DNA of 64,000 bases from a virus. A model generated the notes under the pieces. That model was not told the DNA's origin, made no database searches, and saw only the letters and a list, made by a program, of their open reading frames with translations. Every line of letters begins with the position of its first letter. The first letter of the stretch is position 1. Made by a program: the position numbers and the translations under genes. Of the stretch, positions 19,103-42,211 are shown in pieces. The stretch is from the IMG/VR virus record IMGVR_UViG_3300048588_000891, positions 3,563 through 67,562 of that record. One strand, given 5' to 3'.

Positions 19103-19139
19103 AATGAAAACCCGCTGGCAGAAACAGCGGGTTTTCATT
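19103..19139. terminator. Bidirectional intrinsic terminator
   Basis: AATGAAAACCCGCTG-N7-CAGCGGGTTTTCATT between convergent genes. Confidence 0.8.
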
Positions 19140-19585
19140 CACTCTTCGATTTCCAAGGTGGCCTCCAGCCTCTCAAGTTCTGAAGCCGGCACGATCTCGA
19201 CCTTTGGTTTGAGCTGGGGAGCCAGATCGCTTTCAAAAAGCGGAAGCGTACCAGGGAGAGCCATCGAACGTACAACTGAACGACTGAATTCAGTTTGCAA
19301 ATTTTCAGCATCGGAAGGTGCATAGAACCGGATGCTGGTCCTGGAACTCAAAGAAGACGCTCTCATGCTTCGCGGTTGGATGGTTTCCCTTTGTGGGACC
19401 ATATAGACCGGATCAGCACCAAACTCGGTATAGCGAATCACGCCGCCATTCATTGCGCCTTCTCTCAGCGACATTAGCTCGGCACTTTCGAGGCGCACGG
19501 CAGGAGGAGTTCCGCCACCAACGGAGCCAGCATTTCCAATTGTAGTCCATCCGATTATTAAAGCGGCTACTATTTTAAGCTTCAT
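19139..19585 (-). CDS. Secreted protein 1 with Gly-rich mature N-terminus (GSVGGGTPPAV)
   Basis: Signal peptide MKLKIVAALIIGWTTIGNA; AGAGGA RBS; 15 bp downstream of HTH regulator 1. Confidence 0.8.
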   Translation of the reverse strand: MKLKIVAALIIGWTTIGNAGSVGGGTPPAVRLESAELMSLREGAMNGGVIRYTEFGADPVYMVPQRETIQPRSMRASSLSSRTSIRFYAPSDAENLQTEFSRSVVRSMALPGTLPLFESDLAPQLKPKVEIVPASELERLEATLEIEE

Positions 19586-19600
19586 GAGTTGATCCTCTGG

Positions 19601-20317
19601 TTAAACGATCGCGCAGGCTAAGAGGAATGCAAAATCAGAAAATTCCTCGCATTTTGATGGCTTTTCAGTTTCTTCCTTGAAGAGGTCAGAGAGGTCCTTG
19701 TTTGCATTCATCATAATCATTCTGCCTCTTTGTGCTTTCTCTGCAGTTGTCCTGAAGACCCTGCAAGCCATCATGTCCGATTCTTTTGTTGTATAGGCTG
19801 AATCGAGAACGAATCGACCTAAATTTCTGACGCTTCCCTCGTCCAGTAGCTCGTTGTGCGTATTTGAAGCATGGATCATCCCGTTGTCAATCGAGACGTA
19901 ACCACTGTTGATAAATTTCTCCATGACGACGTTGTAATTGGCGCCAAGGAAGGTGGATGCGAAATCGACCGACATCGTTTCTGCAGTCGAAATTTTTATC
20001 ACAAACCACGCATCATCACTGCTGTCGATCCGAAGTCCGCTTGGCTTGGTTGCCGCCAAGTTGCGAGTTCGAGCATCGGTAAATAGCTCATCAAGCAGGG
20101 AATAGACGAATTCTTTGGGACAAATTGCCGTGAGCAGGCGATAACATGTGGTAAATGAAGGGTTCGCTTCACCTCGTAAAATCTTTCTTAGGTTTGAAGT
20201 GGCGAGGCCGGTCTCAGCATAGATTTTCTGCAGCGTGTTGCCATTCTTGGGATTGTGCCACTTGTGAAGCTCCTGCCGAACATGTTCCCTGAGTTCTGTT
20301 ATCCCAATTTCATTCAT
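19601..20317 (-). CDS. XRE-like HTH regulator 1 with C-terminal domain (resembles TIGR02147/DUF4423-type proteins); occupies the repressor position
   Basis: TLQKIYAETGLATSNLRKILRGEANPSFTT HTH; same architecture as 39273..40004; divergent from the replication gene. Confidence 0.75.
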   Translation of the reverse strand: MNEIGITELREHVRQELHKWHNPKNGNTLQKIYAETGLATSNLRKILRGEANPSFTTCYRLLTAICPKEFVYSLLDELFTDARTRNLAATKPSGLRIDSSDDAWFVIKISTAETMSVDFASTFLGANYNVVMEKFINSGYVSIDNGMIHASNTHNELLDEGSVRNLGRFVLDSAYTTKESDMMACRVFRTTAEKAQRGRMIMMNANKDLSDLFKEETEKPSKCEEFSDFAFLLACAIV

Positions 20318-20384
20318 TCCTAATGGCTCCCAATCTCTAATTCACAGCGAGTATGTCTTGAGATGGAGACATCAGCAACTGGTA

Positions 20385-20446
20385 ACCGCCTCTGAGAGGC
20401 GGTCGTAACACGTTTTTTGGGGAGCAACCGCCTCTGAGAGGCGGTT
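20385..20446. promoter_or_regulatory. Two identical palindromic operators ACCGCCTCT-G-AGAGGCGGT
   Basis: Copies at 20385-20403 and 20427-20445, centres 42 bp apart, upstream of regulator 1. Confidence 0.85.
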
Positions 20447-20873
20447 GAAATTTGCCGTAACCATTGGGGAATTGGGTGTTGTTGGGCTTGCCTTTTTTCT
20501 GACACTGAAGCATATAGAAGACAGAGACTCCCCTATGACCTAAGTGTTTGGCGACGCTGGTCAGCAGGGGAGTCGATGAACCGAGCAAAGTGTTGCCCTG
20601 TTCAAGGTTCAATGTTTATGTGCGAAGAGTACGTAACATTTCCTTTCGGGTCAACACTAAGAAGCCGGAACGCTTGAAATTATTCGAGACGGACTATACG
20701 TGTTGACCATCAAAGGAATGATTATGAACACACCAGCCACTGCCTTTCTGAAATATTCTTCCATGATAGTTACCACATGCGATCTTCACAGTCAGACTTC
20801 ATAACTTCCACCGGCAGTAAACTGTTGGCGTGTGTCAAATCCTGCCATTAATCTTCACGGTTAATGATGTTCT

Positions 20874-23168
20874 GTGATCCGTGACACGCATCACTGCTCT
20901 ACTGACAGATTTCTACTGTTTTTCAAGGCTGAAGTGGATTGGTCTGCTTCGCATCGGGCGGAGCTTTGTCTGGAGTGTTCTGTGAGTGCAGCAACGGAGT
21001 TATTCGCAACGAGCACAGTTCGTCGACTGCGGGAGCAATCCTATTCTCTGCAGCGCGATGGTCATTTCTGGGTGACGTCCTGGAAGATGGTGGCTGCGTT
21101 GGGTCAACGTGAGCTTCTTGTACTTGGCTATCTTGGTTCGGCTGACCCAGCCGACCATCCTTCCCGTGCGGAATTGGGAACGAACCTGGGGATCCAGGGA
21201 AAACGAACTCAGAAGATTCTGGATGATCTACATGCGCGGCGAATCCTGTTCCGCGACTTTGTCGCCTATGGACGCCGGGACAAATCGCTTTGGCATCTTT
21301 CTCATCCAGGCTGGTGGCAGGGATGCAGCGGCTTTACCCCGGATGCCTCGACCACCGACCCCGCTTCCTATCAATCGCTGCAGTTCATGCGCGATCGGGA
21401 TAGAAAGCGTATCAATCAACTTCGATCCTTCATTCTCGCGCAGGACGATACCGTGCGCGTGCCAAATCTCCTTTTCAGAATGCCGGTCAGCTGGCGGGCA
21501 AAGTACCTCTATATTCGTCTGCTCTTTCTTGGGGAGAACATACAGCCTACCGTTGATGAGCTGGCGGCTCTGGTGGGCTGGGACTGGCGGACGGTGCGCT
21601 CGGCGATGAATGAACTGTCCGACCACCAAATGATCGCAATTCAGACGGCTGACACCCGGGTCTTCACAGGCTGGAAACGTCACTATTTGCACCTAACGGA
21701 CTGCTACGACTGGAGGCATGATCAGGCAAAGATGCAGTTCTCCGCGCCCAAAGTTTCCCGGGTTCGATCCCTTGATCTTTCTCCATCCGAGCCGCGGTGG
21801 CGAGCGATCAAAAAGCAGATGTTTACGCCGCACCGCGCCGACGCGGGCAGCTACACCGTGTCATTCCAATTTGATGGACAGCACTATAGTGCGCCTTTTT
21901 TTTGTGACAACGGGAACTACGAAACTGCATTCGGGAACTGCGAGGCTGCAAAAGGGAACTGCGAAGCTGCAGAACTTTCCCTGATGAACCCGGTGCAGGC
22001 CCCGGCCCGCAAGGGCTCGGGGACCTATAAGAAAGCATATCAAGATAGCCCGCAAGAATGCATTCGCGTGCGCGCGTGCGTGGATGACAGTAATGCCGGT
22101 ATTTCAAAAGCCCGGGCCATTTCGATCGCGGAAGGAGCGAGGGACGTCTGGGTCTGGGAAAGCTTTAAATGCGACCGTGCTCTCTGGACCGACGAGGTGC
22201 AGACGTTTGCGAACACATACGGCGAGGCTGATGCCAGGCGGCTGGTGGCTTATGCCAACGAAGTTCTTCTGGCAAGAGGCCGCCGCCGACTTGCGTACAA
22301 TGTCACGTCGATTGGAATGTTGATTGCCGGATTTCTCGATCAAATCCCGGCATCCGAATTCGGCAAAGACAGGGCCGCTTACGCGGCAAATCCGGCTCTT
22401 GAATGCGAAGTTTTGGCGCATACCTCCCATTCAAGCGCAACTGCCTTCATAACCGCCGCTGACGGAACACTGCCTCTGCCATCAACCGGGATGGAATCAG
22501 CGGAACCTGGGCCGGTTTCTGCGGCGATGGAGGCTCAACCTGAATCGGTCGACCTCCCTGTGGCGCCCGATCGGGATCCGCTCGCAAACCTGCCGGCGGA
22601 TGAAGATCGCCTGCGCTGGGTCGTGGGCCGCATGCTGCCAAAACTCGGCAAAAGCCAGAAGGCTGACCTGCGGGATCTCTGGCAGAAGCACGGACCACGC
22701 GGTGCTGTCCTAAGGTTCGCCGGCAAGTCGGACGAAAATTGCCTGGCTGTCATGGGGGCATCGAACGAGCTCTCGAAAGTAGGGATCTTGAGAAGCGCGG
22801 ACATCCCGCGGCTGCCCTGGGAAAATCCAAAACCTGCCGAGGGCGATTCTCAAACCATGGCCACAGACTGCGCGCCCGCACAGGAAAACTCCGCGGCCTC
22901 GAGTACGGACAGCCATTCGACTCTTCTGAGCGATTTCCGCGCATGCCAGGAGCGGAGGCTTGCCGGCGAAAAAGCCTCCGAGGGCACGCCCATCACCCGG
23001 GCTCGTCTCAATAATGCGTTCGCTGTACTCGCCCGCGACATGAAATTCAGCGCTCGCACCAGGATGCTGATGGAACTTGGGAAGCTGAACGACGCCGATC
23101 TGTGGTCACGCCTTGCGGAAACTTTCACCGAACCGATGCTTTTGGAGGTGCTCCGTGACATCCCCTGA
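20874..23168 (+). CDS. Large phage replication-initiator-like protein with wHTH domains (start uncertain)
   Basis: VPNLLFRMPVSWRAKYLYIRLL...PTVDELAALVGWDWRTVRSAMNELSDHQMI is typical of phage initiator N-terminal HTHs; internal 21-bp repeats. Confidence 0.65.
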   Translation: MIRDTHHCSTDRFLLFFKAEVDWSASHRAELCLECSVSAATELFATSTVRRLREQSYSLQRDGHFWVTSWKMVAALGQRELLVLGYLGSADPADHPSRAELGTNLGIQGKRTQKILDDLHARRILFRDFVAYGRRDKSLWHLSHPGWWQGCSGFTPDASTTDPASYQSLQFMRDRDRKRINQLRSFILAQDDTVRVPNLLFRMPVSWRAKYLYIRLLFLGENIQPTVDELAALVGWDWRTVRSAMNELSDHQMIAIQTADTRVFTGWKRHYLHLTDCYDWRHDQAKMQFSAPKVSRVRSLDLSPSEPRWRAIKKQMFTPHRADAGSYTVSFQFDGQHYSAPFFCDNGNYETAFGNCEAAKGNCEAAELSLMNPVQAPARKGSGTYKKAYQDSPQECIRVRACVDDSNAGISKARAISIAEGARDVWVWESFKCDRALWTDEVQTFANTYGEADARRLVAYANEVLLARGRRRLAYNVTSIGMLIAGFLDQIPASEFGKDRAAYAANPALECEVLAHTSHSSATAFITAADGTLPLPSTGMESAEPGPVSAAMEAQPESVDLPVAPDRDPLANLPADEDRLRWVVGRMLPKLGKSQKADLRDLWQKHGPRGAVLRFAGKSDENCLAVMGASNELSKVGILRSADIPRLPWENPKPAEGDSQTMATDCAPAQENSAASSTDSHSTLLSDFRACQERRLAGEKASEGTPITRARLNNAFAVLARDMKFSARTRMLMELGKLNDADLWSRLAETFTEPMLLEVLRDIP
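21912..21974 (+). repeat. Three 21-bp direct repeats GGGAACTRCGARRCTGCA; candidate lytic-origin iterons
   Basis: Start at 21912, 21933 and 21954 inside the initiator gene. Confidence 0.75.
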
Positions 23169-23412
23169 TGACGTCATCTGCACCGCCTGCAGGCACATCA
23201 CACGGCTGATCCAAATGTACCGGATCGAGCCCTACGAATGGCCGCTGATGCAGCGCGAAAGCCCTGAACTCTGGCAAAGGATTGATCAGCTCGAGTGGCT
23301 TGGACCACTCCCGCTCGAGGAGACCCAAAAATTCCATCGAATCCTGATCATGAACTACGAACGCATGTTCATGCGTCGTGCATCGAGACGGGAGACAAGG
23401 CATGCAGCCTGA
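23155..23412 (+). CDS. Hypothetical protein
   Basis: GGAGG RBS and GTG start overlapping the initiator gene end. Confidence 0.5.
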   Translation: MTSPDDVICTACRHITRLIQMYRIEPYEWPLMQRESPELWQRIDQLEWLGPLPLEETQKFHRILIMNYERMFMRRASRRETRHAA

Positions 23413-23548
23413 AATGATTCCGCTCAAGGGAAGATCGCAGCTCAGAATACTTCATGATGCAGTTTCGATCATTGGAATGGGACGACAAGACCGAAGCAAA
23501 AATTCATGAATTTTCGCAAAGGATTGTGGCTCAAGGTGGAAACGCGGA

Positions 23549-25684
23549 TTGGGTGCATCGTACACTCGACGAGTTTCGAGGAAAACTTCACAACAGAAAA
23601 AAATCCGACTGGAGCCGCTGATGAACGGAATGATTGATTTGGGCGCTGGAAACCGGCTTTACACAGTGCGGGATTGGATCCGCGATTTGGGTGGGAAATT
23701 CGACTCTGCCCGTCGTGTCTGGATGGTGCCTGCTGCGAAGGAAGTTGAGGCGAGAAGAATCATCGCTGACACCTCGATTGGCCCAAAGCCTCTGCAGCGT
23801 ACCGCGGTGTCTATTCGCGAACCACAGCTCCAGCTTATTCCTCTCGATATGGACGAAGACGAGCTGACCCTTACGACGGAGATGCCTGTTTACCCGGCCC
23901 GCTCCGCAGCCACGCAGCCAAAAGTCCTGGTGCCCCAAATCGCAAATCTTTCCCTCGATCCGACTCCGGAGCAGGTGGCTTTGATTCAGGCGTTCGGTTC
24001 GAACAGCGGCGATTTGATTGCGCCGGCATTCGCTGGATCCGGTAAAACCACGACGCTGATCCTGCTGGCACGCGCCTATCCGAACGTGCGTTTTCTCTAT
24101 CTATGCTTCAATCGCAAAAATGCGGACGAAGCGAAAGGGAAATTCCCGCCGAACGTCCAGGTGATGACCGCCCATTCGCTGGCCTACCGATATCTGGGCC
24201 TTGGTCAGCATCAGCATAAGCTGAACATGGGGAAGTATGATTTTGAGTGCCTCTTCATGCAGATCTTCGATGACTCGGGCGATCCGATCCGGATGCCAGG
24301 GATCAACGAAAAGCAATATATCGATCTCCTTCGTGAGGCCGTGAAGTCCTTTGAGTCCTCGATGGAAGAACAAATCTCAGTAAAACCTGACGATCGCATC
24401 GCAAGGCTGGTATCTGCCGCCTTCATCCTTTCCCAGAAAGGTGTGGACGGATTAAAAACCGATATTGAAAAAGTCATCAATCAGTTCATCGAACGATATC
24501 CTTCGATCAAGGACCGTTATCCAGAGCTTATCGCTTCACTGGAGACGATCGACCGGGACCGTCGCCGCAACGTACTGTCGACGATTCGCTCGGTGAACCC
24601 CGGCGCGCTTGCGGTCATGGTCGCCTATTACCAGTCCGAGCTGCTCGCAGAGAAACTTGGTCAGTTCATCAGACAGCTCCAGGATCATGCAGAGAAGTTT
24701 TTTCGCCTTCAGACTGACCTCGAGAGTTCGGTGCCTTTCGAGCACTCCACTTATCTGAAAATGTATCAGCTGTCCCGCCCGGAGATCCGCGGATTCGATG
24801 CGATCCTGTTCGATGAATCTCAGGATGCCAATCCTGTGATCCTTGATATCGTCAGGCGGCAGACAATGCGGAAGGTCTGGGTGGGTGATCAGCATCAGTC
24901 CATCTATGAATTCACTGGTGCGATCAATACCATCGAAGGACTCATTGAGCAGGGGATCCTGGCCCTGCCGCTGACTCAGAGTTTCCGGTTTGGCCCTGGT
25001 GTGGCGGCGCTCGCCAACCGGGTGCTTGCGCTGAAATACCGCTACTGCCGAGCGAAGTTCAGGGCCGGGTCGATCCCGAAGATTATCGGTGCAGGATCCG
25101 AAGAGGCCCAGGGGAGCACAGCGATTCTTTGCCGGTCCAACGTCGGCGTTCTCCAGGAGGCCCTTGCAAATCTCCGCGGCGATATCTACTTTGCCGACTG
25201 CCTTCCCCACGCTTACCTCCTGTCGATGCTTGATATCTACCGGCTGAAGATGAAGCTTCCGATCCTGAACCACGAGTCGCAATATTATGGCTTCACCAAT
25301 GTCGAGGAGCTTAAGCACGAGGCTGACCTTCGGGGCGATGTTGACACCATGCGAGCCCTCACGCTTCTCGAGAAGATGGGAGCTGAGGACTTCAAGGACG
25401 CTGTGGAATCGCTGATCGAGATCGCCAAAAATGCAAAGAAAACAGCGGCCACCCATATCCTGACAGCTCACAAGGCAAAAGGTTTGGAATGGGCCAACGT
25501 CCGTTTGTCCAATGACTTCGTTTCCCGGTTCGTTGAAAAGGATGGCCGGATGCGGAAGGAAGTTGCTGAGCAGGAAATCAATCTGCTCTATGTTGCGGTC
25601 ACCAGGGCAAGGAACCATGTGTCCTTGCCATTTGAACTTGATGAAATATTGTCGATCGGAGTAAGTGAAGTTGGATTTTTTTAA
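23549..25684 (+). CDS. UvrD/Rep-family SF1 helicase
   Basis: AFAGSGKTTT, FDESQD, VGDQHQSIY, LTQSFRFG, HKAKGLEW, LYVAVTRA. Confidence 0.95.
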   Translation: MGASYTRRVSRKTSQQKKIRLEPLMNGMIDLGAGNRLYTVRDWIRDLGGKFDSARRVWMVPAAKEVEARRIIADTSIGPKPLQRTAVSIREPQLQLIPLDMDEDELTLTTEMPVYPARSAATQPKVLVPQIANLSLDPTPEQVALIQAFGSNSGDLIAPAFAGSGKTTTLILLARAYPNVRFLYLCFNRKNADEAKGKFPPNVQVMTAHSLAYRYLGLGQHQHKLNMGKYDFECLFMQIFDDSGDPIRMPGINEKQYIDLLREAVKSFESSMEEQISVKPDDRIARLVSAAFILSQKGVDGLKTDIEKVINQFIERYPSIKDRYPELIASLETIDRDRRRNVLSTIRSVNPGALAVMVAYYQSELLAEKLGQFIRQLQDHAEKFFRLQTDLESSVPFEHSTYLKMYQLSRPEIRGFDAILFDESQDANPVILDIVRRQTMRKVWVGDQHQSIYEFTGAINTIEGLIEQGILALPLTQSFRFGPGVAALANRVLALKYRYCRAKFRAGSIPKIIGAGSEEAQGSTAILCRSNVGVLQEALANLRGDIYFADCLPHAYLLSMLDIYRLKMKLPILNHESQYYGFTNVEELKHEADLRGDVDTMRALTLLEKMGAEDFKDAVESLIEIAKNAKKTAATHILTAHKAKGLEWANVRLSNDFVSRFVEKDGRMRKEVAEQEINLLYVAVTRARNHVSLPFELDEILSIGVSEVGFF

Positions 25685-26540
25685 AAAATACGGGTTTGAC
25701 CCGCACTGTGCCATCTGCATGTATCAAGGCATCCAGATGTCCTGGACGATGTCCGCCACGGCATTTGCCAGGACGGGGATGATATCAAATCTCTTTGTGG
25801 ATGACTTTTTTGAAGAAGTTAATCGTTTGGCCAACATCGACAAGGTAGCGGCAGTCATGGTGAAGCTTCTCGATATGAAGATGTTCGATACGCTTGACGG
25901 CAGAAGAATCTTTCCATCCTTCATGTCGGACTATGAGAAATTTTATTCCCTTGGCCGGTACGTTGGCATGGTGTTTTTCAATTCCGTAATCGGCGCAATT
26001 TATAAAGTTATAAAAGACGAGAAACGCGAAATCTTCAGCAAAGAGAAGTTTGCCACTTTTTTAAAGGATTTCCCGCCTGAAGAAATGAGGCGCGAGTATG
26101 CCGCATGTGGTGATGAGCCCCTTCCAACAACCTACCACTTCTCCAAGCGCCAGGATACCAATGTAGTTAAATTGAAGCACAGCAAGGGAGGTAATGAGAC
26201 GGGAGAAAAGAAAACCTCGTCCGAAGCCAATTTCTGTCTGCTGATTTCAGCGGCAAGAGATAGAGTCATAATCCATGACGGATATAAGCTTCCGGTAAAA
26301 GGGTATGAGGTTTTAGCTTCAAATATAAACCTTGCTCTTGGGGAGGATGAAGAGGCTTCGACCCATGATCCCGAAACGGAAAACACCGTCCTGGGCATGA
26401 TACTTTATGCGATGGAAAGTACCGGATTTATAGTCAGGCGTCTGAAGCGGAATGGCTTCATTAGCGGCGGTGGATGTCCTCCCGGTGGTCCTTTCGAGAT
26501 TGAAGAGCCGGATTCGGGGACCGAGGACGTCGACGATTGA
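25665..26540 (+). CDS. Hypothetical protein
   Basis: 291-aa ORF overlapping the helicase end. Confidence 0.6.
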   Translation: MKLDFFKKYGFDPHCAICMYQGIQMSWTMSATAFARTGMISNLFVDDFFEEVNRLANIDKVAAVMVKLLDMKMFDTLDGRRIFPSFMSDYEKFYSLGRYVGMVFFNSVIGAIYKVIKDEKREIFSKEKFATFLKDFPPEEMRREYAACGDEPLPTTYHFSKRQDTNVVKLKHSKGGNETGEKKTSSEANFCLLISAARDRVIIHDGYKLPVKGYEVLASNINLALGEDEEASTHDPETENTVLGMILYAMESTGFIVRRLKRNGFISGGGCPPGGPFEIEEPDSGTEDVDD

Positions 26541-35098: not shown

Positions 35099-35106
35099 GG
35101 TGGACC

Positions 35107-35292: not shown

Positions 35293-35299
35293 GGTGCGA

Positions 35300-35557: not shown

Positions 35558-35598
35558 TCCAAAACCTGTTTCATGTCAACCAACGATCGTAGCGCAGC

Positions 35599-35621
35599 GT
35601 GTTCGCAGTTTTTGCGAACAG
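35599..35621. promoter_or_regulatory. Palindrome TGTTCGCAG-TTT-YTGCGAACA, copy 1
   Basis: Just upstream of TTCGTC-N17-TATCCT; second copy at 57664. Confidence 0.65.
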
Positions 35622-35697
35622 CAGATTTCTTCGTCTTCACGGCGCGCAGAGGTATCCTTCCAGAAGCCTGATTCAAGGCTTTGGACAAGGAATCGTG

Positions 35698-36447
35698 ATG
35701 ACCGTGAGAAAAAATTTAGGCTGGCTCCCAGATAATGCTGATGAACGCGACTTCATCTATAAAGCGAAAAGATCATCTCAGAAATTCCCCGCGGTGGTCG
35801 ATCATCGAAGGCGCTATTTCCGCGTGTGGGATCAGGGCGATCTAGGCTCATGCACGGCCCAAGCTGCATGCGCGGCCTGCATGTTCCTGGATGTCTATGA
35901 TCAGGACATGCCGGTGGTTCTGCCTTCGCGGCTATTCGTTTACTATGCGACCCGAACTCTCGAAGGTACGAAGAACACCGATTCAGGCGCAACGCTGCGG
36001 AATACCATCAAAGCTATCGCCACCTGGGGATATCCGCCCGAGGATCAATGGCCCTATGACATCAAAAAATTCTCGATTCGTCCTCCAGACCAGGCCATTG
36101 CCGTGGCTGCGAAGGAAAGGATCAAATCCTACGAGCGTCTCGGTCGCGATCTTGATCAGTTCCGTGAGGTGATTGGCGAGGGCCATCCGATCATTCTGGG
36201 CTTCTCGGTCTACCCTTCCATCGACGGTCGCAATGTGCGAAAGACCGGATACATCCCCGTACCGAAGCCAGGCGAGAAGCGCGATGGCGGCCATGCGGTC
36301 CTGGTCTGCGGGTATGATGATACGAAAGAGGCCCTCATCATCAGAAACAGCTGGGGTGACGGCTGGGGCGAGGAAGGTTATGGCTATCTTCCCTACCGCT
36401 TTATCGAGGATCCAAAGCTGTCCGGTGATTTCTGGACCATCCGTTAA
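35698..36447 (+). CDS. Papain-like C1A cysteine peptidase (no signal peptide)
   Basis: DQGDLGSCTA, SRLFVYY, GGHAVLVCGYDD, IRNSWG..WGEEGYGYLPY. Confidence 0.95.
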   Translation: MTVRKNLGWLPDNADERDFIYKAKRSSQKFPAVVDHRRRYFRVWDQGDLGSCTAQAACAACMFLDVYDQDMPVVLPSRLFVYYATRTLEGTKNTDSGATLRNTIKAIATWGYPPEDQWPYDIKKFSIRPPDQAIAVAAKERIKSYERLGRDLDQFREVIGEGHPIILGFSVYPSIDGRNVRKTGYIPVPKPGEKRDGGHAVLVCGYDDTKEALIIRNSWGDGWGEEGYGYLPYRFIEDPKLSGDFWTIR

Positions 36448-36463
36448 ACCTGTCGAGGGCTCG

Positions 36464-37093
36464 ATGCTGATCATTGATGTGATGGACGACAACCGCGCTG
36501 AAAACTGGTCAGCATCTGAGATGATCGAAGAGACGAAACGTCTCATGGCTGCCCTGAACCTGACGGCCGCGCAGGCTACAAAATCCCTGAAGGCTGATAT
36601 GCCTTCCCGTTTCACCCTACGCAAAAACTGGGCGCAAAAAGGGATTCGGTTTGAACGGGCAGATCGCGAGTCTCTTCAGGCTCGCGTTTTTTCGGTGGAT
36701 CCCTGGCTTTTGAAACAGGAAGAGGGTGAGACGTGGAAGCCCAAAGGTCATGTGGCGATCCCGAAAGCGGCCCGTCCATCGGAAAAGTCTCTCATCCCGA
36801 GGTCAATGTTTCCAAATGCCTTGCGCGATCGCAAGGATGTTTTCGCGTTCGACTTTTCCAAAAATGCAGCCTGGAAACCCTATCCGCACCACGGGATTTT
36901 TCAGCGTGTGAGGGGCGGCCAGCACCTCAGGATTCTTTATCTTCTCAAGGATAAAAAGACGACGCCCGCGCGATGGAAATTCAGTGAGCAGGTGGAGGAC
37001 GTGGTCGATGAATACTTTGATCGCTACTACGATGAAGATGAACTCGACAGCTTTTATTGGAAGCAGCAGAGTTATGCGACCGATTTCAGATAG
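36464..37093 (+). CDS. Phage protein, possibly lambda gpZ-like tail completion protein
   Basis: AALNLTA...RFT.R..W...G.R..RA....LQARV pattern; basic. Confidence 0.5.
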   Translation: MLIIDVMDDNRAENWSASEMIEETKRLMAALNLTAAQATKSLKADMPSRFTLRKNWAQKGIRFERADRESLQARVFSVDPWLLKQEEGETWKPKGHVAIPKAARPSEKSLIPRSMFPNALRDRKDVFAFDFSKNAAWKPYPHHGIFQRVRGGQHLRILYLLKDKKTTPARWKFSEQVEDVVDEYFDRYYDEDELDSFYWKQQSYATDFR

Positions 37094-37242
37094 CAGGCCA
37101 TAAAAAAGGGACCGCGTTTCCGCGATCCCTTCCTTCAGCTCTCCCAAGCTGTCCCGGTAATTCTCCTGCGAATTCAGCCTGATGTCAATGGCATTAACCG
37201 GATTCGATAGGGTTTGACGGATACTTTTTTTGGGAGATCAGT

Positions 37243-38016
37243 ATGGAAAAAGTCAGGTTTGGCGATCTTATCAAAATCGGAAGACACACCCTTCTTTGCG
37301 GCGATGCCTCCGAGCCTGCGATGCTCGCGCCGCTCTTCGGCGGCCAGCTGCCGGTTCTGATGGTCACTGACCCGCCCTACGGGGTCAATTTCAAGGTTCG
37401 GGACCGACACGAGCCTGCGACAGTGCTTGCCAAGGCCACGAACCTCGAGGATCTTCGGATCCGCAACGATCATAGAGCGTCGTGGTCCCGTGCATTCCAT
37501 CTGTCCCAGGCGCGGATCGCCTATATATGGCACGCATCGACAGCCACGGACGTCGCAATCCAGGCCGTGCGCGACGGCGACTATGAGCCGCGGCAGATGA
37601 TTATCTGGGCGAAGAACCGGGCAAGCCTGAGTCGTTCAGCGTATCATTGGAAGCACGAAAGCTGCGTCTATGCCGTGCGCTTTGGCGAGACCGCAAACTG
37701 GAAAGGCGACCGGAAACAAACGACCCTTTGGACAGCCGAGGTGCCGCCAGCGAAGGACCGGGTCCACCCCACCCAAAAACCCATCGAACTCTATACCCGC
37801 CCGATCCTCAATCACACTGATGAAGGGGACGTGGTTTACGATCCGTTCGCAGGATCCGGAGTCATCTTCGCAGGCGCGCAGGACACGGGGCGTGTGGCGC
37901 TTGGCGTTGAGATTGAGCCGCTTTTCTGTGAAAAGATCATCGCCCGCCTCGAGAATCATTACCGGCTCAAAGCGAAAACTGTCGGCAATGTGTTTGCGAT
38001 AGGGGAGGGGAAATGA
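37243..38016 (+). CDS. N4/N6 DNA methyltransferase
   Basis: LLCGDA, TDPPYGV, HPTQKPIEL, VYDPFAGSG. Confidence 0.95.
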   Translation: MEKVRFGDLIKIGRHTLLCGDASEPAMLAPLFGGQLPVLMVTDPPYGVNFKVRDRHEPATVLAKATNLEDLRIRNDHRASWSRAFHLSQARIAYIWHASTATDVAIQAVRDGDYEPRQMIIWAKNRASLSRSAYHWKHESCVYAVRFGETANWKGDRKQTTLWTAEVPPAKDRVHPTQKPIELYTRPILNHTDEGDVVYDPFAGSGVIFAGAQDTGRVALGVEIEPLFCEKIIARLENHYRLKAKTVGNVFAIGEGK

Positions 38017-38019
38017 TGA

Positions 38020-38055
38020 ATTATCTTAAAGTCGCATGTGCGATTTTAAGATAAT
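38020..38055. promoter_or_regulatory. Palindromic site, copy 3 (36 bp, one mismatch)
   Basis: ATTATCTTAAAGTCGCA-TG-TGCGATTTTAAGATAAT. Confidence 0.75.
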
Positions 38056-38177
38056 AGATTGCGATTGTGCAACCTAAAGCCGTTTTGCACCCTTTATCCC
38101 AGGCAGGTCGTCCAATCGTTTTCTAACGTGCGAATGGTATGATTCGCATGTCTGACTTCCATCAGCAGGAGTCTTCC

Positions 38178-38372
38178 GTGACAAAAAATCAATTCGTCAA
38201 ATATCTGAAAGACCATGGCTTCCGACTCGTCAGGAACGGCACGCATGCCTATTATTCTGATGGAGCCAGCAAAGTAACTGTCAGCCACGGCTCCAAGGTT
38301 AATCCCGAGTGCATTCACCACGCACGCCTGGCAATAAAAAAGCAGGGCCGGCGCCGGCAGATTGCCAGCTAA
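38178..38372 (+). CDS. HicA-like toxin
   Basis: VKYLKDHGFRLVRNGTHAYY...VTVSHGSKV; AGGAG RBS. Confidence 0.7.
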   Translation: MTKNQFVKYLKDHGFRLVRNGTHAYYSDGASKVTVSHGSKVNPECIHHARLAIKKQGRRRQIAS

Positions 38373-38465
38373 AGGTCGCAATAATCGGAATCAAGTAGTG
38401 TCATGAGTTGTAGGGGCTGCTCAGGCGGCCTCACCATTTCCATCATCCTTGGAGATTCCCGCCCT

Positions 38466-38825
38466 ATGAGCAGTGCTGTTGATCGTATTCGAGCCGAAGC
38501 CCTTGCAGAAATTCAGGACGCTTTGATCATGATGGACGCCAAAATGGCAAATCTAACTCAGGACGATCCTGAGCTCCATGGTTTGGAGCCGCCAGAAACC
38601 AAGGCACGCCTGGAGCGAACAGCAATAGCGCTGGATGAGATACGGGAGCATGTGCGGCAGGCATACGGTGAGCGAGCAAAGGTGCCCGGACGCCTGGTCC
38701 ATCTCTGGCTTGAAATCCGGACCAAGGCCATCAGGGCCAAGAAAACCGCGGCGCAGCCGAAGCCGATGAACATTCGAGTGCTCAGGCGGCAGGAGAGTGA
38801 GCAGCGATCCCTGTGGAGAGTCTGA
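38466..38825 (+). CDS. Hypothetical helical protein
   Basis: GGAG RBS; not HicB-like. Confidence 0.5.
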   Translation: MSSAVDRIRAEALAEIQDALIMMDAKMANLTQDDPELHGLEPPETKARLERTAIALDEIREHVRQAYGERAKVPGRLVHLWLEIRTKAIRAKKTAAQPKPMNIRVLRRQESEQRSLWRV

Positions 38826-38850
38826 GGCCCCGGCGGAGGCCCCGCGACCT

Positions 38851-39276
38851 TTATTTGCTCTCAGCGTCTTTGACCACGACAGTCACTGATGGATCGTCGA
38901 CCAGCGTCATGGTCACGATCTTGGATTCGGGATCAATACCTGTCGCGCGGACATTCATATCGCGATAGACGAAATCCTTGCCTTCGGCAGCAGCGACAGA
39001 GACCAAATCAAAGTCAGTGGGCTGCACTTCAAGCAAGATACCCGCTGGGGCCTCGCTGCTCAACTCCATCAACCTGGTCGTCCGTATATTTTGGGGCAGA
39101 GCGGCGATATCGAGTTTCAGATTATCGCCAAGGAGTTCTTCCATCCTGGCGGTCGATAGCATTGTTTCTGACAAGGCTACTTCCTGAAGCTGCTTGCCCA
39201 GGCCACCGCCGCCAGCTGACCCACCAGAAAACGCTGTGCCCGATATTAAAAGCAACGCAAGCAAGTATATTTTCAT
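38851..39276 (-). CDS. Secreted protein 2 with Gly-rich mature N-terminus (GGSAGGGGLGKQLQ)
   Basis: Signal peptide MKIYLLALLLISGTAFS; ATGA overlap with regulator 2. Confidence 0.85.
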   Translation of the reverse strand: MKIYLLALLLISGTAFSGGSAGGGGLGKQLQEVALSETMLSTARMEELLGDNLKLDIAALPQNIRTTRLMELSSEAPAGILLEVQPTDFDLVSVAAAEGKDFVYRDMNVRATGIDPESKIVTMTLVDDPSVTVVVKDAESK

Positions 39277-40004
39277 TCTCCACCTCTCAGGAACGATCCC
39301 ACGATCGAGAGCAGCAGTGCGTTCTGATCTCCAGGATGCTCTTTTGCTAGTTTAAGACTGTCATCAAGGTATCGTCTCGTCAGGTCTCTGTGCTTTTCTT
39401 TTCCGATTTCGCTTAAAGCCATTGTAATATGATAGAGGAAACCGCCTTGGGCAATTTCGTCAGTAGTCCATGAGTTCAGGTGCATTAAAGCTTTCGCTTT
39501 AGAGTCCGAAATCTTGGGATAGTATAGATACTCTTCAGATTGCTTAAGTTTGCCATTCACCAATCTAACAAGGCCAGCATCAAGAAGAAGCTCGACACGT
39601 CGAGGTACAATGTAATCTCCGAAAGTCGCTTGAAGCTTTTCAGGTGTAACTCCAGATGGAAGAGCAGCCATCGCAAGTATGAAATGATCTGGTGATTCCC
39701 ATTCAAATTCATCGCTGGTTATCACCGTTTTGGTTTCGTCTTTGCTCCAGTTGTTCTTTACCACAAGCCAGAATTTTTCCTCAGTGTGCTTATCCACCAA
39801 AGACATGACGTCTTTGAATGGCATAAACACAAGAAGTAGTGACGTAATTTTTTCCAGTGAAGTTTTCTGCACTTCACCTTGAATTATAGATCTAGCTGTT
39901 GAAAAAGGCATTCCAGCAGACCTTGCAAGAGCAGCGGTTGACAGATGCGGATTCTCTGTCAAATACCGCTTGATAAGCTCGCGTGCTTCCTCTAGGAGAG
40001 TCAT
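39273..40004 (-). CDS. XRE-like HTH regulator 2 (paralog of regulator 1)
   Basis: LSTAALARSAGMPFSTARSIIQGEVQKTS HTH; central wHTH-like LLDAGLVRLVNGKL; likely start MTLLEE at 40004. Confidence 0.78.
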   Translation of the reverse strand: MTLLEEARELIKRYLTENPHLSTAALARSAGMPFSTARSIIQGEVQKTSLEKITSLLLVFMPFKDVMSLVDKHTEEKFWLVVKNNWSKDETKTVITSDEFEWESPDHFILAMAALPSGVTPEKLQATFGDYIVPRRVELLLDAGLVRLVNGKLKQSEEYLYYPKISDSKAKALMHLNSWTTDEIAQGGFLYHITMALSEIGKEKHRDLTRRYLDDSLKLAKEHPGDQNALLLSIVGSFLRGGE

Positions 40005-40383
40005 GTTGAGTAATCCCTGCCGATTATTTGTTAACAATCGTTGTTACTCTATTACCAATCACTGTTTTTCTCAATGAAAGACACACTCAGATCTTGCGGC
40101 TATTCACAGTCAGTTTATAACTGCCAACACAAAGCTTGAAAGTCTTGTGGGATAAGGAAAGGAGGACTTATCGCATTCGATTAAAGAGAGGCAAGGACGA
40201 CACAAACCCATGATCAGCTCTTGTTTGGCGACTCCAGCTGATAAGTGTTTTTCAGCAGCGTCCTTGATGTGAAAGTTATCTCTATTAACCTTCAACGTCA
40301 AGTGCGTGTCACCCGATATACGTCTTTCCCTCTCACCCTAGTTCAATAGAAAAACCGCCATGAGCGAATGAATCCATGTCGCC

Positions 40384-41508
40384 GTGGGTGCCGAACCCTA
40401 TTGTCAAAAGGAGATGAGCAGGATGGGACGAGCGAGCAGGAAAGACTGCGCAACGAGCCTAGAGATAGTGAGACTCGTCGACGATTCCATATGGAGTCGC
40501 TTTCAGACAGAATACCCGCATGGTTTGGTGATTGGCCGGGACGAACTCACTCTCCTTAAGGGATTGGCCGCCAATGGGCAGGCCGCCACAGTCATCACTG
40601 GGGAAACCGGCACTGGAAAGGAGGAGATAGCTAAACTTCTCCACCGCTTTCGATGCGATCGAGAGGGAAGCATCCCATTCGTCGTCGTGAACTGCGCGAC
40701 CATTGCTGAAAGCCTTTGCGAATCTCTTCTTTTTGGCCATAGACGCGGAGCGTTCACAGGCGCGGACTCTTCGACAAACGGATACATTCAAGATGCCAAT
40801 GGCGGCATCTTGTTCCTGGATGAGATCCACACCCTCTCCATATCTATCCAGCAGAAGCTTCTGCGGGTTATGAACGACGGAACATTCAACCGACTTGGGG
40901 AAACCTCCCAGCTCCAGAGCCGATTTCAGCTGGTTGCTGCTTCTACAAGGGACCTGGATGATGAAGTCGATGCGGGGCGATTCCTTCTCGATCTCAGAAG
41001 CAGACTGACTGGCATTGATATACACCTATTGCCTCTTCGGGATCGCAAGGCAGACCTACCTGCGCTGGTCGCGCGCCGCTTGTCGGATAATGGTGTTTCG
41101 ATCAGCGGAGATCTGCTTGCGCGGCTGGTTGAATACCTTGCGCAATTTCATTGGCGTGGAAACATACGCCAGCTTTTCAAAGCTATCGACACCTGGATCC
41201 TTGCTTCGACGATGAAAGGGATTCCCCTGTGTATCTCCAGATTCCCTGTTTTCAAAGGAATGCTGGAACCTACCGCAAAAAAACAAATCGGAAATGGCGA
41301 GGCGTTTGAGCCAAACATAGAGCTTTTTGCTTCGATCTTGGCAGGACGGAACCTTGTCGAAACTCTTGAAGCTGTAGAAAGTTTGATGATCAGCGAAGCC
41401 ATTAAAAACCATAGAACCATCGGCGACGCGGCGAGAGCGCTTGGTGTACCTCGGTCTACGATTGATACCAAGAGACGGAAGTATGGGCTGGCTGGTTCAG
41501 TTGTGTGA
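40384..41508 (+). CDS. Sigma54-dependent enhancer-binding activator lacking a receiver domain
   Basis: GETGTGKE, ESLLFGHRRGAFTGA, LFLDEI, WRGNIRQL, C-terminal Fis HTH AARALGVPRSTI. Confidence 0.95.
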   Translation: MGAEPYCQKEMSRMGRASRKDCATSLEIVRLVDDSIWSRFQTEYPHGLVIGRDELTLLKGLAANGQAATVITGETGTGKEEIAKLLHRFRCDREGSIPFVVVNCATIAESLCESLLFGHRRGAFTGADSSTNGYIQDANGGILFLDEIHTLSISIQQKLLRVMNDGTFNRLGETSQLQSRFQLVAASTRDLDDEVDAGRFLLDLRSRLTGIDIHLLPLRDRKADLPALVARRLSDNGVSISGDLLARLVEYLAQFHWRGNIRQLFKAIDTWILASTMKGIPLCISRFPVFKGMLEPTAKKQIGNGEAFEPNIELFASILAGRNLVETLEAVESLMISEAIKNHRTIGDAARALGVPRSTIDTKRRKYGLAGSVV

Positions 41509-41536
41509 ACTTTTGAAATCCATAAAAGGAGTGCTC

Positions 41537-42211
41537 ATGGAAAGAAAACTGTCAGTTGTATTTGTGGGTCTGATTCTCTCTTCTGTTTCGCTTGCGGGGC
41601 AGGGAAGTGGCAGCGGTTTGGGCTTGCAAGGTACTGGTCTGGGTGGTGGTGGAACACTAACAATGGGTGGCTCCATTGGTGGTGATTTCCCTAGCGTCAG
41701 CGGAACTGTAGTTGGTGGCAGCGGTGCCCGTAGTATGACGGATGGCAGTCTAGGAGGAAGCGGCGGTACACCGGCTGTAATGGATGGATCCATTGGTGGT
41801 GGCGGCGGCACACCAGCCCTGACAGGCAGCGGCATCGGCGGCGGTGGCCTTGGTTTGCAGGGCAGAACCACTGGCGGCGGTTCACCCCCTGCTCTAACGG
41901 GTGGCAACATCCACGGTCGTAGTGCTCGATTGCAAGGTTGGGGCACGAGTGGCGGCACCCCACCTGCAGTAGCGGACGGTATTAGCGGCGGCGATACACC
42001 AGAGGTCGAAGAATTCAGCGGGCAAACGGGTGGCGGCGGTGGTGCTGGACTTTGCAGCAGCGATGCCGAGCAGCTAGCAAATTCCACTCTGACCCCGAAT
42101 CTCGCGATCGTGGTCGGTGGTCTTCCTGCTCAAGTTTCGCCCACGTATATTGCGGCAATTTCCATGCAATATCGCTCACACGCTGATGTCTGTGAAGCGA
42201 CTGAAGACTAA
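41537..42211 (+). CDS. Secreted protein made of about 12 tandem variant Gly-rich peptides
   Basis: AAGGAG RBS; signal peptide ending SLA; units such as GSIGGGGGTPALT, GSGIGGGGLGLQ, GRTTGGGSPPALT, GWGTSGGTPPAVAD. Confidence 0.85.
   Translation: MERKLSVVFVGLILSSVSLAGQGSGSGLGLQGTGLGGGGTLTMGGSIGGDFPSVSGTVVGGSGARSMTDGSLGGSGGTPAVMDGSIGGGGGTPALTGSGIGGGGLGLQGRTTGGGSPPALTGGNIHGRSARLQGWGTSGGTPPAVADGISGGDTPEVEEFSGQTGGGGGAGLCSSDAEQLANSTLTPNLAIVVGGLPAQVSPTYIAAISMQYRSHADVCEATED

What the first reader, a model, noticed from the sequence alone, without database searches (positions are those of the whole stretch)
19139..42211. Candidate peptide-signalling system: two HTH regulator/secreted Gly-peptide pairs plus a multi-peptide precursor
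Seen: two paralogous ~240-aa HTH proteins (19601-20317; 39273-40004) are each tightly followed by a ~145-aa secreted protein. The two secreted bodies show no obvious similarity, but both predicted mature N-termini are Gly-rich peptides: GSVGGGTPPAV and GGSAGGGGLGKQLQ. A third secreted ORF (41537-42211) is a string of variants of this peptide and contains near-copies of both (GWGTSGGTPPAV; GSGIGGGGLGLQ). Each pair is divergent from a major operon (lytic replication; sigma54 activator plus cargo). Established: regulator plus adjacent exported pro-peptide is the layout of AimR/AimP, Rap/Phr and PlcR/PapR, which are TPR proteins of Firmicutes; these proteins do not look like RRNPP members and the host appears Gram-negative. 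Inference: a distinct cognate peptide-receptor communication system controlling lysis/lysogeny and cargo expression.
Basis: partly seen in the sequence, partly recalled or inferred. Interest (0 to 1): 0.93.

Follow-up and report, generated by a model that had tools for sequence, protein, structure and literature searches.

The report
Regulator plus exported-protein gene pairs
A phage of a Gram-negative Oligoflexus-type bacterium carries two copies of a widespread but undescribed two-gene unit, a DNA-binding regulator joined to a small exported protein, which is laid out like a peptide-signalling pair although signalling is not shown.

Summary
Reg1 (19601-20317) and Reg2 (39273-40004) are distant members of one uncurated regulator family: 1166 cluster representatives at E<=1e-3, found in 52 of 131 genomes of the Oligoflexus phylum. 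In unbiased samples the regulator gene is followed by a tightly coupled small signal-peptide ORF in 29 of 29 best-per-genome loci and in 8 of 10 matches in one genome. GGGTPPA lies in frame at a mature N-terminus in 11 of 12 pattern hits, 10 of them with a regulator directly upstream. All 5 N-terminal GGGGLGK occurrences are also regulator partners. The poly-Gly protein (41537-42211) has 11 units. One is an exact 10-mer of a related prophage's partner N-terminus (2 of 5000 shuffles).

The system is not RRNPP: no TPR, an HTH plus winged-helix fold, and partners of 141-148 aa. Several results argue against a simple propeptide. Sec2 is conserved over its whole length and more than its regulator. 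The poly-Gly N-terminus is a subfamily trait. The poly-Gly units do not track the related prophage's own Sec1 N-terminus. Feedback signalling remains an inference (confidence about 0.35). This scan has not noted the family on other DNA.

The parts
19601..20317 (-). Reg1: 238-aa regulator of the family (N-terminal Xre-type HTH). It sits in the immunity-repressor position, divergent from the replication-type operon.
   Evidence: 45.9 bits against an HMM of 73 representatives that excludes its own subfamily.
19139..19585 (-). Sec1: 148-aa exported partner of Reg1, starting 15 nt after the Reg1 stop.
   Evidence: Has 5 relatives in the Oligoflexus genome G001, two of them in intact regulator pairs.
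19496..19528 (-). Codons for the Sec1 mature N-terminal word GSVGGGTPPAV (residues 20-30).
   Evidence: GGGTPPA was found at mature N-termini of regulator partners only.
20385..20445 (.). Twin exact 19-bp palindromes ACCGCCTCT-G-AGAGGCGGT (20385-20403 and 20427-20445), 42 bp apart. Candidate Reg1 operators.
   Evidence: 2 matches, 0.01 expected by chance, and no other copy in the window at up to 3 mismatches.
20874..25684 (+). Start of the divergent operon facing Reg1: a 764-aa protein with no Pfam hit, then a UvrD-type helicase.
39273..40004 (-). Reg2: 243-aa regulator of the same family. The model shows an Xre-type HTH (1-77), a winged helix (about 96-166) and C-terminal helices.
   Evidence: (pLDDT 83.9).
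38851..39276 (-). Sec2: 141-aa exported partner of Reg2, with a 4-nt overlap. The N-terminal half is low-confidence and includes a helix at residues 26-49. The C-terminal alpha/beta domain (residues 78-138) is confidently folded.
39193..39225 (-). Codons for the Sec2 mature N-terminal word GGSAGGGGLGK (residues 18-28).
   Evidence: All 5 N-terminal GGGGLGK occurrences in 131 genomes are regulator partners.
40384..41508 (+). Sigma-54 activator (AAA+ domain plus Fis-type HTH), divergent from Reg2 and directly upstream of the Gly-repeat gene.
   Evidence: Sigma54_activat, E 2.2e-49.
41537..42211 (+). Gly-repeat exported protein (224 aa): a signal peptide, 11 word-like units and a short C-terminal part containing two Cys.
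   Evidence: The homolog in prophage G066:C238 has 5 units and an unrelated C-terminal part.
41597..42052 (+). The array of word-like units itself (residues 21-172).
   Evidence: LGLQ occurs twice, [TS]P(P)A[VL] four times and TPEV once; the 10-mer GSGIGGGGLG.

Best explanation
What is there. The two pairs are phage-borne copies of a large, uncurated two-gene module of Bdellovibrionota (Oligoflexus-type hosts). The first gene encodes a cytoplasmic regulator of about 240 aa, with an Xre-type HTH, a winged helix and C-terminal helices. It is a remote relative of DUF4423/TIGR02147. The second gene is translationally coupled to it and encodes a small Sec-exported protein. In the chromosomal clades, the best-conserved part of that protein is its mature N-terminus.

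Roles on the phage. Reg1 is most likely the immunity repressor acting on the twin palindromes. Reg2 most likely controls the divergent sigma-54-activator and cargo operon.

The mechanism I commit to. The exported partner is the regulator's cognate extracytoplasmic arm and feeds back on the regulator. The partner is made together with its regulator and exported. It, or an N-terminal fragment carrying the 'word' (GGGTPPA type for Sec1, GGGGLGK type for Sec2), then returns information to the regulator. On a phage this could happen after release by lysis, followed by uptake. The Gly-repeat protein supplies many word-like units when the sigma-54 operon is on.

Shown: the module, its universality, the exclusivity of the motif to regulator partners, the fold class of the regulator, and the operators.
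Inferred: every step of export, processing, return and binding.
For: Pairing. A small signal-peptide ORF starts between 31 nt before and 16 nt after the regulator's stop in 29 of 29 best-per-genome loci, in 8 of 10 matches in genome G001, and in 56 of 59 regulators over all fetched DNA, although that last set includes loci selected through the motif. Stop/start overlaps of 4 nt are common. From general knowledge, that layout is typical of interacting pairs such as rap-phr, toxin-antitoxin and sigma/anti-sigma genes.

Family size and copy number. 1166 representatives at E<=1e-3. Up to 20 or more copies per genome, in 52 of 131 genomes.

Each regulator clade has its own partner N-terminal word. 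The quick tree needs 11 label changes against a shuffled mean of 34.8, and 0 of 200 shuffles were as low.

Conservation. In the chromosomal clades the regulators are 68-84% identical, the partner N-terminal 18 columns 48-68%, and the partner body only 28-39%.

Motif exclusivity. 11 of 12 GGGTPPA hits lie at residues 22-35 of a small signal-peptide ORF. Ten of those have a regulator upstream and the eleventh is cut by a contig end. For GGGGLGK, 5 of 5 N-terminal occurrences are regulator partners. Synonymous sites vary among the hits, so the conservation acts at the protein level.

Mosaic. Regulator, signal peptide and word co-segregate (68/60/100% identity) while the body differs (46%); in the reverse case the regulator is 42% and the body 82% identical.

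Gly-repeat protein. It shares an exact 10-mer with a partner word (2 of 5000 shuffles).

Repressor features. Neither Reg1 nor Reg2 has an S24 peptidase hit, so Reg1, if it is the repressor, must be released by some route other than self-cleavage.
Against: No step of the signalling loop has been observed.

Partner size. Partners are 97-223 aa, and 141 and 148 aa here, which is larger than known propeptides.

Whole-protein conservation. Sec2 is conserved over its whole length (67-90%) and has a confident C-terminal domain (pLDDT about 86), while Reg2 relatives are 38-49% identical.

No ligand-binding domain. The regulator model shows two DNA-binding-type domains and a few helices, with no recognisable peptide-binding repeat domain.

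Words without dialects. The same words occur with regulators that are only about 30-37% identical.

Structural explanation for conserved N-termini. In most clades the conserved N-terminus reads like the first beta-strand of a fold (SGSNTVFLPV, NGETGILIV, NGGVVILH). Its conservation may therefore be structural.

Alternative explanations for the positive evidence. The tree clustering and the mosaic can both arise from co-inheritance and from one recombination breakpoint between adjacent genes. The groups were defined by the motif itself, which is partly circular.

Gly-repeat units do not track local words. In prophage G066 they do not follow that prophage's own Sec1-type word, and the array is fused to an unrelated domain.

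Missing components. No importer or processing protease is part of the module. A Gram-negative envelope adds an outer-membrane barrier.
Confidence: 0.35

Rival explanations
1. Locally regulated exported effector, with no feedback. The regulator simply autoregulates a small operon. Its product is a periplasmic or envelope protein with a job of its own; on the phage that could be a lysogenic-conversion or superinfection-exclusion protein made together with the repressor. The Gly-rich words are a modular N-terminal tether, linker or sorting handle that can be attached to different bodies.
For: Sec2 is conserved over its whole length and has a folded C-terminal domain. The Gly words occur on several unrelated bodies: Sec1, Sec2, the L012-type partners, a 75-aa Pro-rich partner, and the two different C-terminal parts of the Gly-repeat proteins. 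The sister family TIGR02147 is also followed by exported proteins, but by large lipoproteins of 294-394 aa, in 7 of 10 loci examined. The chromosomal clades sit in stable housekeeping neighbourhoods. From general knowledge, phage repressor operons often carry an envelope gene downstream, as in lambda cI-rexAB.
Against: This does not explain why the unit is always one regulator plus one small exported protein across at least 8 deep clades. It does not explain why the two genes are translationally coupled, since local regulators are usually expressed apart from their targets. It does not explain why the Gly words were found on no exported protein that lacks a regulator, apart from the Gly-repeat proteins. 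A sorting handle would be expected on many unlinked proteins.
Confidence: 0.3
2. Export-gated antagonist. The unexported precursor binds its regulator in the cytoplasm, and normal Sec export removes it. When export or the envelope fails, precursor accumulates and switches the regulator. For the phage, this would mean induction when the host envelope is failing. The logic resembles FlgM/sigma-28 and ExsE-type partner switching (recalled from general knowledge), but uses the Sec pathway.
For: Translational coupling implies co-production. The conserved element lies right after the signal peptide, where it would be exposed in a precursor. The regulator lacks a self-cleavage domain.
Against: There is no direct evidence. 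No Sec-dependent example of this logic is known to me. The poly-unit Gly-repeat protein has no obvious role in this model.
Confidence: 0.12
3. Toxin-antitoxin-like or addiction module. The regulator is an Xre-type antitoxin and the small hydrophobic-headed protein is a membrane-directed toxin.
For: The N-terminal domain resembles HipB, HigA and C-protein HTH domains (Z about 7). Weak HipB and antidote-protein model hits occur in a few members. The family is multicopy, overlapping gene starts are common, and some copies lie next to mobile-element genes.
Against: The partners have canonical cleavable signal peptides, by my reading. Core chromosomal copies are syntenic across many genomes. There were no PADLOC or toxin family hits. 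At 240 aa with a second winged-helix domain, the regulator is unlike typical antitoxins.
Confidence: 0.05

Closest known systems
RRNPP receptor-propeptide systems (AimR-AimP, Rap-Phr, PlcR-PapR)
   Same: A cytoplasmic regulator gene lies directly next to, and often overlaps, a gene for a Sec-exported small protein. There are many diversified paralogs per genome. Copies occur on temperate phages beside the lysis-lysogeny region.
   Different: There is no TPR domain. The fold is Xre-HTH plus winged helix plus helices. The regulators are 238-243 aa and the partners 141-148 aa, outside the 250-500 aa and 10-100 aa ranges used to define RRNPP (PMC10075063, passages read). The conserved piece is the N-terminus of the mature protein; my recollection is that in Phr, AimP and PapR the active peptide comes from the C-terminus. 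The host is a Gram-negative Bdellovibrionota. No peptide or binding has been shown.
DUF4423 / TIGR02147 family regulators of Bdellovibrionota and Fibrobacter
   Same: They have a similar size and order of parts (N-terminal HTH, then a winged-helix-like region) and occur in the same phylum. Language-model neighbours score 0.92-0.93. There is a colinear but weak profile match. In genome G001, 7 of 10 TIGR02147 genes are also followed by an exported protein.
   Different: The curated models do not match: 0 of 73 representatives, and neither window protein. The hhalign probability is only 13%. TIGR02147 partners are lipoproteins of 294-394 aa starting C-G-x-E-x-GNP, not small proteins of 100-150 aa. 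No function is on record for TIGR02147: the only paper found lists a DUF4423 protein as upregulated during growth in prey (PMC12546842, one passage read).
Lambda-type immunity repressor with a downstream accessory gene (cI-rexAB type; recalled from general knowledge)
   Same: Reg1 is divergent from the early or replication operon, with two identical palindromic sites between them. A non-structural gene is co-oriented directly behind it.
   Different: There is no S24 self-cleavage domain. The same module also occurs as core chromosomal genes far from any prophage.
N-terminal Gly-rich targeting segment of curli subunit CsgA (N22; recalled from memory, not tested here)
   Same: A Gly-rich stretch lies directly after the signal-peptide cleavage site of an exported protein and acts as a handle rather than as part of the fold.
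   Different: No CsgG-type channel or curli genes were seen in the window. The words here are tied to a regulator gene, which curli subunits are not.

Membership tests
RRNPP quorum-sensing systems | The receptor carries TPR repeats that bind the peptide (criterion 4 in PMC10075063). | tested here: not met
   No TPR model hit for Reg1 or Reg2 at E<=1, nor in 73 family representatives at E<=0.01. The AF2 model (pLDDT 83.9) shows an HTH, a winged helix with beta-strands, and only three helices after residue 165.
RRNPP quorum-sensing systems | The propeptide is small (10-100 aa in RRNPP_detector). | tested here: not met
   Sec1 is 148 aa and Sec2 is 141 aa. The 29 best-per-genome partners are 105-223 aa.
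RRNPP quorum-sensing systems | The receptor is 250-500 aa. | tested here: not met
   238 and 243 aa, a marginal miss.
RRNPP quorum-sensing systems | The propeptide is exported by the Sec pathway. | tested here: inconclusive
   A basic N-terminus, a hydrophobic core and an AXA-like site are seen by my own heuristic in 56 of 59 partners. SignalP was not available.
RRNPP quorum-sensing systems | The receptor and propeptide genes are direct neighbours. | tested here: met
   The gaps are 15 nt and -4 nt in the window. The same holds in 29 of 29 and 8 of 10 homologous loci.
RRNPP quorum-sensing systems | The mature peptide binds the receptor and changes its activity. | not testable with these tools
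   This needs binding or reporter assays.
TIGR02147 / DUF4423 | A score over the curated cut-off of TIGR02147 (50 bits) or of PF14394. | tested here: not met
   No hit for Reg1 or Reg2 at E<=1. 0 of 73 representatives hit at E<=0.01. The 12 true TIGR02147 genes of G001 lie at other places than the 10 family matches.
TIGR02147 / DUF4423 | Remote homology (same superfamily). | tested here: inconclusive
   hhalign gives probability 13%, E 0.0021, colinear over 214 columns. Atlas feature neighbours score 0.92-0.93 with 190-205 shared features.
Xre-type (HTH_3) DNA-binding proteins | An N-terminal Cro/C1-type helix-turn-helix. | tested here: met
   Residues 1-77 of the model align to C.Esp1396I, HipB and XRE structures at Z 6.7-7.5 with rmsd 2.8-4.0 over 66-73 residues. 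HTH_3 hits 22 of 73 representatives, best E 2.2e-7. Reg1 itself hits only below the cut-off (18.4 bits against 23).
LexA/CI-type self-cleaving repressors | A C-terminal S24 peptidase domain. | tested here: not met
   No Peptidase_S24 hit at E<=1 for either regulator.
Known anti-phage defence systems (PADLOC) | A match of any component to a defence family model. | tested here: not met
   0 of 7 proteins hit at E<=0.01.

The most novel reading that the evidence does not exclude
This would be a genetically encoded peptide or protein communication system in Gram-negative bacteria and their phages, built on a receptor fold unrelated to RRNPP. Each regulator clade would recognise the mature N-terminal 'word' of its own exported partner. 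The phage would use one pair at its immunity switch and one at its cargo switch. Its poly-word protein would broadcast, or jam, several dialects at once, including the exact word (GSGIGGGGLG) of a competing prophage. Release by lysis would make it a functional analogue of arbitrium.
Probability: 0.2. Interest if true: 0.92.

Novelty: new variant of a known kind. Interest (0 to 1): 0.7.

Why it matters
In the passages I read, genetically encoded peptide signalling with a cytoplasmic receptor is treated as a trait of Firmicutes and their mobile elements (PMC10075063). This module has the same genetic layout. It is present in up to 20 or more copies per genome in a Gram-negative, largely predatory phylum, and it sits at the two main switches of a temperate phage. 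No curated model or paper describing it was found: for models, and for papers.

Even if it proves not to signal, it defines a family with at least 1166 cluster representatives. That family has a simple and testable rule (regulator, then a coupled exported partner, with a conserved mature N-terminus). It also gives a first functional handle on the DUF4423/TIGR02147-like regulators. If it does signal, it opens phage and bacterial communication in a new phylum with a new receptor fold.

Tried and rejected
Complex prediction. The job used Reg2 (alignment A8) with mature Sec2 (alignment A7, residues 18-141). It gave no verdict: scores 0.29, 0.43 and 0.00 against a mark of 0.32, and the controls were not run. 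It counts neither for nor against binding.

Curated families. Pfam and NCBIfam gave nothing over threshold for the five window proteins. Pfam gave nothing for 10 partner proteins of other clades apart from one sub-threshold NYN hit. PADLOC gave nothing.

Fold searches. For Reg2, Foldseek against PDB found no match at E<=1e-3. VIA-wide found only per-domain matches, the best being an uncharacterised Kribbella protein, 4g6q, at Z 9.2. For Sec2, the VIA-wide best was Z 6.4 to half of a glyoxalase-like fold, too weak to name. BFVD found nothing at E<=1e-3. The atlas search for Sec1 gave nothing usable: scores were 0.78 or less and the atlas's own model has pLDDT 0.47.

Searches for more related phages. 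Phage records by tblastn with Reg1 and Reg2: no match. Viral contigs with Reg1 and with Sec2: none. Metagenome contigs with Sec2 and with its relative P0164: none confirmed. L002 from the genome-contig scan was a false positive inside a GGDEF/EAL-type protein.

Badly designed pattern. GGNGGNGGNGGNYTNGGNHTN allowed Phe and excluded the Lys of the real motif. It hit 50 of 131 genomes at about the level of the reversed control and is uninformative. It was replaced.

AimR link rejected. 4 of 73 representatives touch the AimR model with a best E of 0.0069. That is far below significance and probably reflects the HTH only.

DNA or RNA element rejected. The idea that the conserved word reflects a DNA or RNA element rather than a peptide is rejected, because third-codon positions vary freely among the 12 hits.

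Gly-type modules always on prophages: not established. Of 10 neighbours scanned, one gave a strong PHROG hit (baseplate hub) and a few gave weak ones.

Other limits. The tree is the quick version; the careful search did not finish in 288 s and I did not rerun it. Supplementary tables of PMC10075063, which might list candidate systems outside Firmicutes, were not opened. No SignalP or TM predictor was available.

Full report
1. What is in the window. The window is 64 kb of a 67.6-kb virus record. It has RecT, a UvrD-type helicase, a DNA methylase, a sigma-54 activator and a block of exported proteins. The five ORFs of the finding are present as described. Reg1 (19601-20317, minus strand, 238 aa) is followed after 15 nt by Sec1 (19139-19585, 148 aa). 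Reg2 (39273-40004, minus strand, 243 aa; start confirmed by homologs) overlaps by 4 nt with Sec2 (38851-39276, 141 aa). By the -3/-1 rule, the mature proteins begin GSVGGGTPPAV and GGSAGGGGLGKQLQ. Among all signal-peptide-like ORFs of the contig, only Sec1, Sec2 and the Gly-repeat protein (41537-42211) are Gly-rich just after the signal peptide. The Sec1 and Sec2 bodies are unrelated. Two exact 19-bp palindromes lie between Reg1 and the divergent operon and occur nowhere else in the window.

2. The two regulators belong to one large, uncurated family. Pairwise they are barely alike: 22% identity, E 0.028, and profile-profile probability 41.5%. An HMM built from 73 representatives that excludes the Reg1 subfamily nevertheless scores Reg1 at 45.9 bits (E 2.4e-16) and Reg2 at 175 bits. 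A profile of 18 members finds 1166 cluster representatives at E<=1e-3, 679 at E<=1e-10 and 85 at E<=1e-30, almost all about 240 aa long. Only generic HTH models hit them: HTH_3 in 22 of 73 and HTH_26 in 16 of 73. None of the 73 hits DUF4423 or TIGR02147. The AF2 model of Reg2 (pLDDT 83.9) has three parts. The first is an Xre/HipB/C-protein-type HTH at residues 1-77, with Z about 7. The second is a winged helix at about residues 96-166. The third is a set of C-terminal helices. The best match to the C-terminal two thirds is an uncharacterised protein, 4g6q, at Z 9.2 over 143 residues. There is no TPR and no S24 peptidase.

3. Host. Homologs carry the labels Oligoflexus sp. and Pseudobdellovibrionaceae. 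The tree output gives Oligoflexaceae, Bdellovibrionota. Contig C238 of genome G066 is a prophage closely related to the window, with terminase 94%, portal 82% and sigma-54 activator 78% identical, and it has the same gene order around both pairs.

4. The pairing is a rule of the family. In one 8.2-Mb Oligoflexus genome, 8 of 10 regulator matches are followed by a coupled signal-peptide ORF of 97-148 aa. The other two are a match cut by a contig end and a 622-aa fusion protein. Searching 131 genomes of the phylum found the family in 52, with up to 20 or more matches per genome. In the best locus of each of 29 further genomes, 29 of 29 have a downstream ORF of 105-223 aa with a signal-peptide-like N-terminus, starting between 31 nt before and 16 nt after the regulator's stop. 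Over all fetched DNA, 56 of 59 regulators have such a partner. The exceptions are the fusion protein and two 'second' regulators convergent on an already complete pair; that set includes loci picked through the motif, so the two earlier counts are the unbiased ones. The commonest clades lie in conserved housekeeping neighbourhoods, so they are core chromosomal genes and not prophage remnants (the neighbour names are my reading of the sequences). True TIGR02147 genes in the same genome are followed by exported proteins in 7 of 10 loci, but those are large lipoproteins of 294-394 aa.

5. The Gly motif is specific to regulator partners. The back-translated GGGTPPA pattern gives 12 hits in 6 of 131 genomes, against 6 for the reversed control. 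Eleven encode the motif in frame at residues 22-35 of a signal-peptide ORF of 68-157 aa. Ten of these have a family regulator directly upstream (HMM E<=1e-19), the eleventh is cut by a contig end, and the twelfth is in no ORF carrying the motif. GGGG[LF]GK gives 18 hits, against 8 for the control. Five lie at residues 21-34 of a small signal-peptide ORF, and all five have a regulator upstream. Six are internal to ORFs that are not regulator partners: five in large proteins and one near the C-terminus of a 126-aa ORF. Seven lie in no ORF of 50 aa or more. With these queries, then, the words were not found on other exported proteins. Poly-Gly is nonetheless a subfamily trait. Among the 29 best-per-genome partners only one has it; the others begin SGSNTVFLPV, RNGETGILIV, KNGGVVILH, GNDSVCSIT and so on.

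6. Where conservation lies. On a quick tree of 56 regulators, each clade has its own partner N-terminal word: 11 label changes against a shuffled mean of 34.8, and 0 of 200 shuffles as low. Co-inheritance alone can produce this. In the three chromosomal clades the regulators are 68-84% identical, the partner N-terminal 18 columns 48-68% and the partner body 28-39% (the groups were named by the motif but nearly coincide with regulator clades). The phage Sec2 family shows the opposite. Its relatives are 67-90% identical over the whole length, with variation concentrated in the first four or so mature residues (GGSA, GTGL, GSGI, GGTA...), while Reg2 relatives are only 38-49% identical. Sec2 has a low-confidence N-terminal half, consisting of the Gly stretch and a helix at residues 26-49, and a confident small alpha/beta C-terminal domain with no reliable fold match. 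One mosaic is notable. The G066 prophage and locus L004 share regulator (68%), signal peptide (60%) and word (100%) but not the body (46%). The window and the G066 prophage share the body (82%) but not the regulator (42%). That fits a functional unit made of regulator plus word, but a single recombination breakpoint between adjacent genes would look the same.

7. The Gly-repeat protein. My parse gives 11 units of 11-14 aa in the window protein, with LGLQ endings twice, [TS]P(P)A[VL] four times and TPEV once. The G066 homolog has 5 units. The C-terminal parts of the two proteins are unrelated: the only BLAST hit is a 5-residue match at E 5.5. The units resemble whole partner words. GSGIGGGGLG is an exact 10-mer of the mature N-terminus of the Sec2-type partners of L004 and of the G066 prophage, reached in 2 of 5000 composition-preserving shuffles. 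The 7-mer shared with the window's own Sec1 is not significant by itself, since 513 of 5000 shuffles reach 7 or more. The G066 array keeps the GGGGLGLQ and GTP(P)AL unit types even though that prophage's Sec1-type word is GSTTGGGIGTV. The array therefore does not simply mirror the local partners. A homolog was found in only 1 of 131 genomes.

8. Reading. What is shown is a new, very consistent two-gene module, its regulator fold class, the exclusivity of the Gly words to its exported partners and to the Gly-repeat proteins, and the operator-like palindromes beside Reg1. Translational coupling and one-to-one pairing across deep clades are, from general knowledge, the signature of gene pairs whose products work on each other. 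Because the partner is exported, that means either feedback from outside the cytoplasm (signalling) or contact before export. I rank feedback signalling first at about 0.35. A plain regulated exported effector whose Gly words act as a modular handle comes second at about 0.30, an export-gated antagonist third at about 0.12, and a toxin-antitoxin-like module last at about 0.05. The main arguments against signalling are as follows:
- the size of the partners and the whole-length conservation of Sec2;
- the absence of a recognisable ligand-binding domain in the regulator;
- the sharing of words among regulators that are only about 30-37% identical;
- the possibility that, in most clades, the conserved N-terminus is simply the first beta-strand of a fold.

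9. Comparison with known systems. By layout the closest is RRNPP, but it fails three of the five published criteria: TPR, propeptide size and receptor size (PMC10075063, passages read). By descent the closest is DUF4423/TIGR02147, whose models it does not match and whose function is unknown. The only paper found that mentions either name lists a DUF4423 protein in a proteomics table (PMC12546842, one passage read). Searches for Oligoflexus prophages, for peptide communication in Gram-negative phages, and for RRNPP together with Bdellovibrio returned nothing describing such a module; I saw listings and abstracts only. This scan has not noted the family on other DNA.

Noticed in passing
Loci L013-L022 (genome G001): True TIGR02147 regulators are followed on the same strand by exported proteins in 7 of 10 loci. 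These are mostly lipoproteins of 294-394 aa, four of which begin C-G-x-x-x-G-N after the lipobox cysteine. This may be a larger-partner version of the same architecture.
   Followed up: partly
L023 714-1436(+) and L064 15367-16089(-): Sec1-type pairs in G001 and in the G066 prophage have a second family regulator convergent on the exported gene (Reg, then Sec, then a facing Reg'). This second regulator has no partner of its own. In G066 it is the one weakly similar to the window's Reg1 (26% over 76 aa).
   Followed up: no
L011 1471-3339(+) (genome G001): A 622-aa protein whose N-terminal part matches the regulator family. It is a fusion form with no downstream partner; its C-terminal half was not examined.
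   Followed up: no
G066:C238 (L063, L064): A prophage closely related to the window (terminase 94%, portal 82%, RecT 79% identical) but with a different cargo set, including a 942-aa lipoprotein. It is useful as a comparison genome for every finding on this window.
   Followed up: partly
L024, L025, L027 (genome G001): Sec1-like fragments lie next to tyrosine-recombinase and transposase remnants; two of them have in-frame stops. These are decayed copies of the module on mobile DNA.
   Followed up: no
L032, L037, L039, L042: Tandem duplications of the whole regulator-partner module (SGSNTVF and SGATVVF types side by side) in several genomes.
   Followed up: no
L066 1429-1902(+) and L068 1435-1641(+): Some GGGTPPA-type partners carry a second, internal word-like copy (GGGTPPL, GGNGGPPAL). 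These are small-scale versions of the array seen in the Gly-repeat protein.
   Followed up: no
window 17945-19018: Two co-oriented plus-strand ORFs (155 and 169 aa) lie directly beside Sec1 and were not annotated here. Together with the neighbouring AT-richer DNA they may mark the edge of the immunity region.
   Followed up: no
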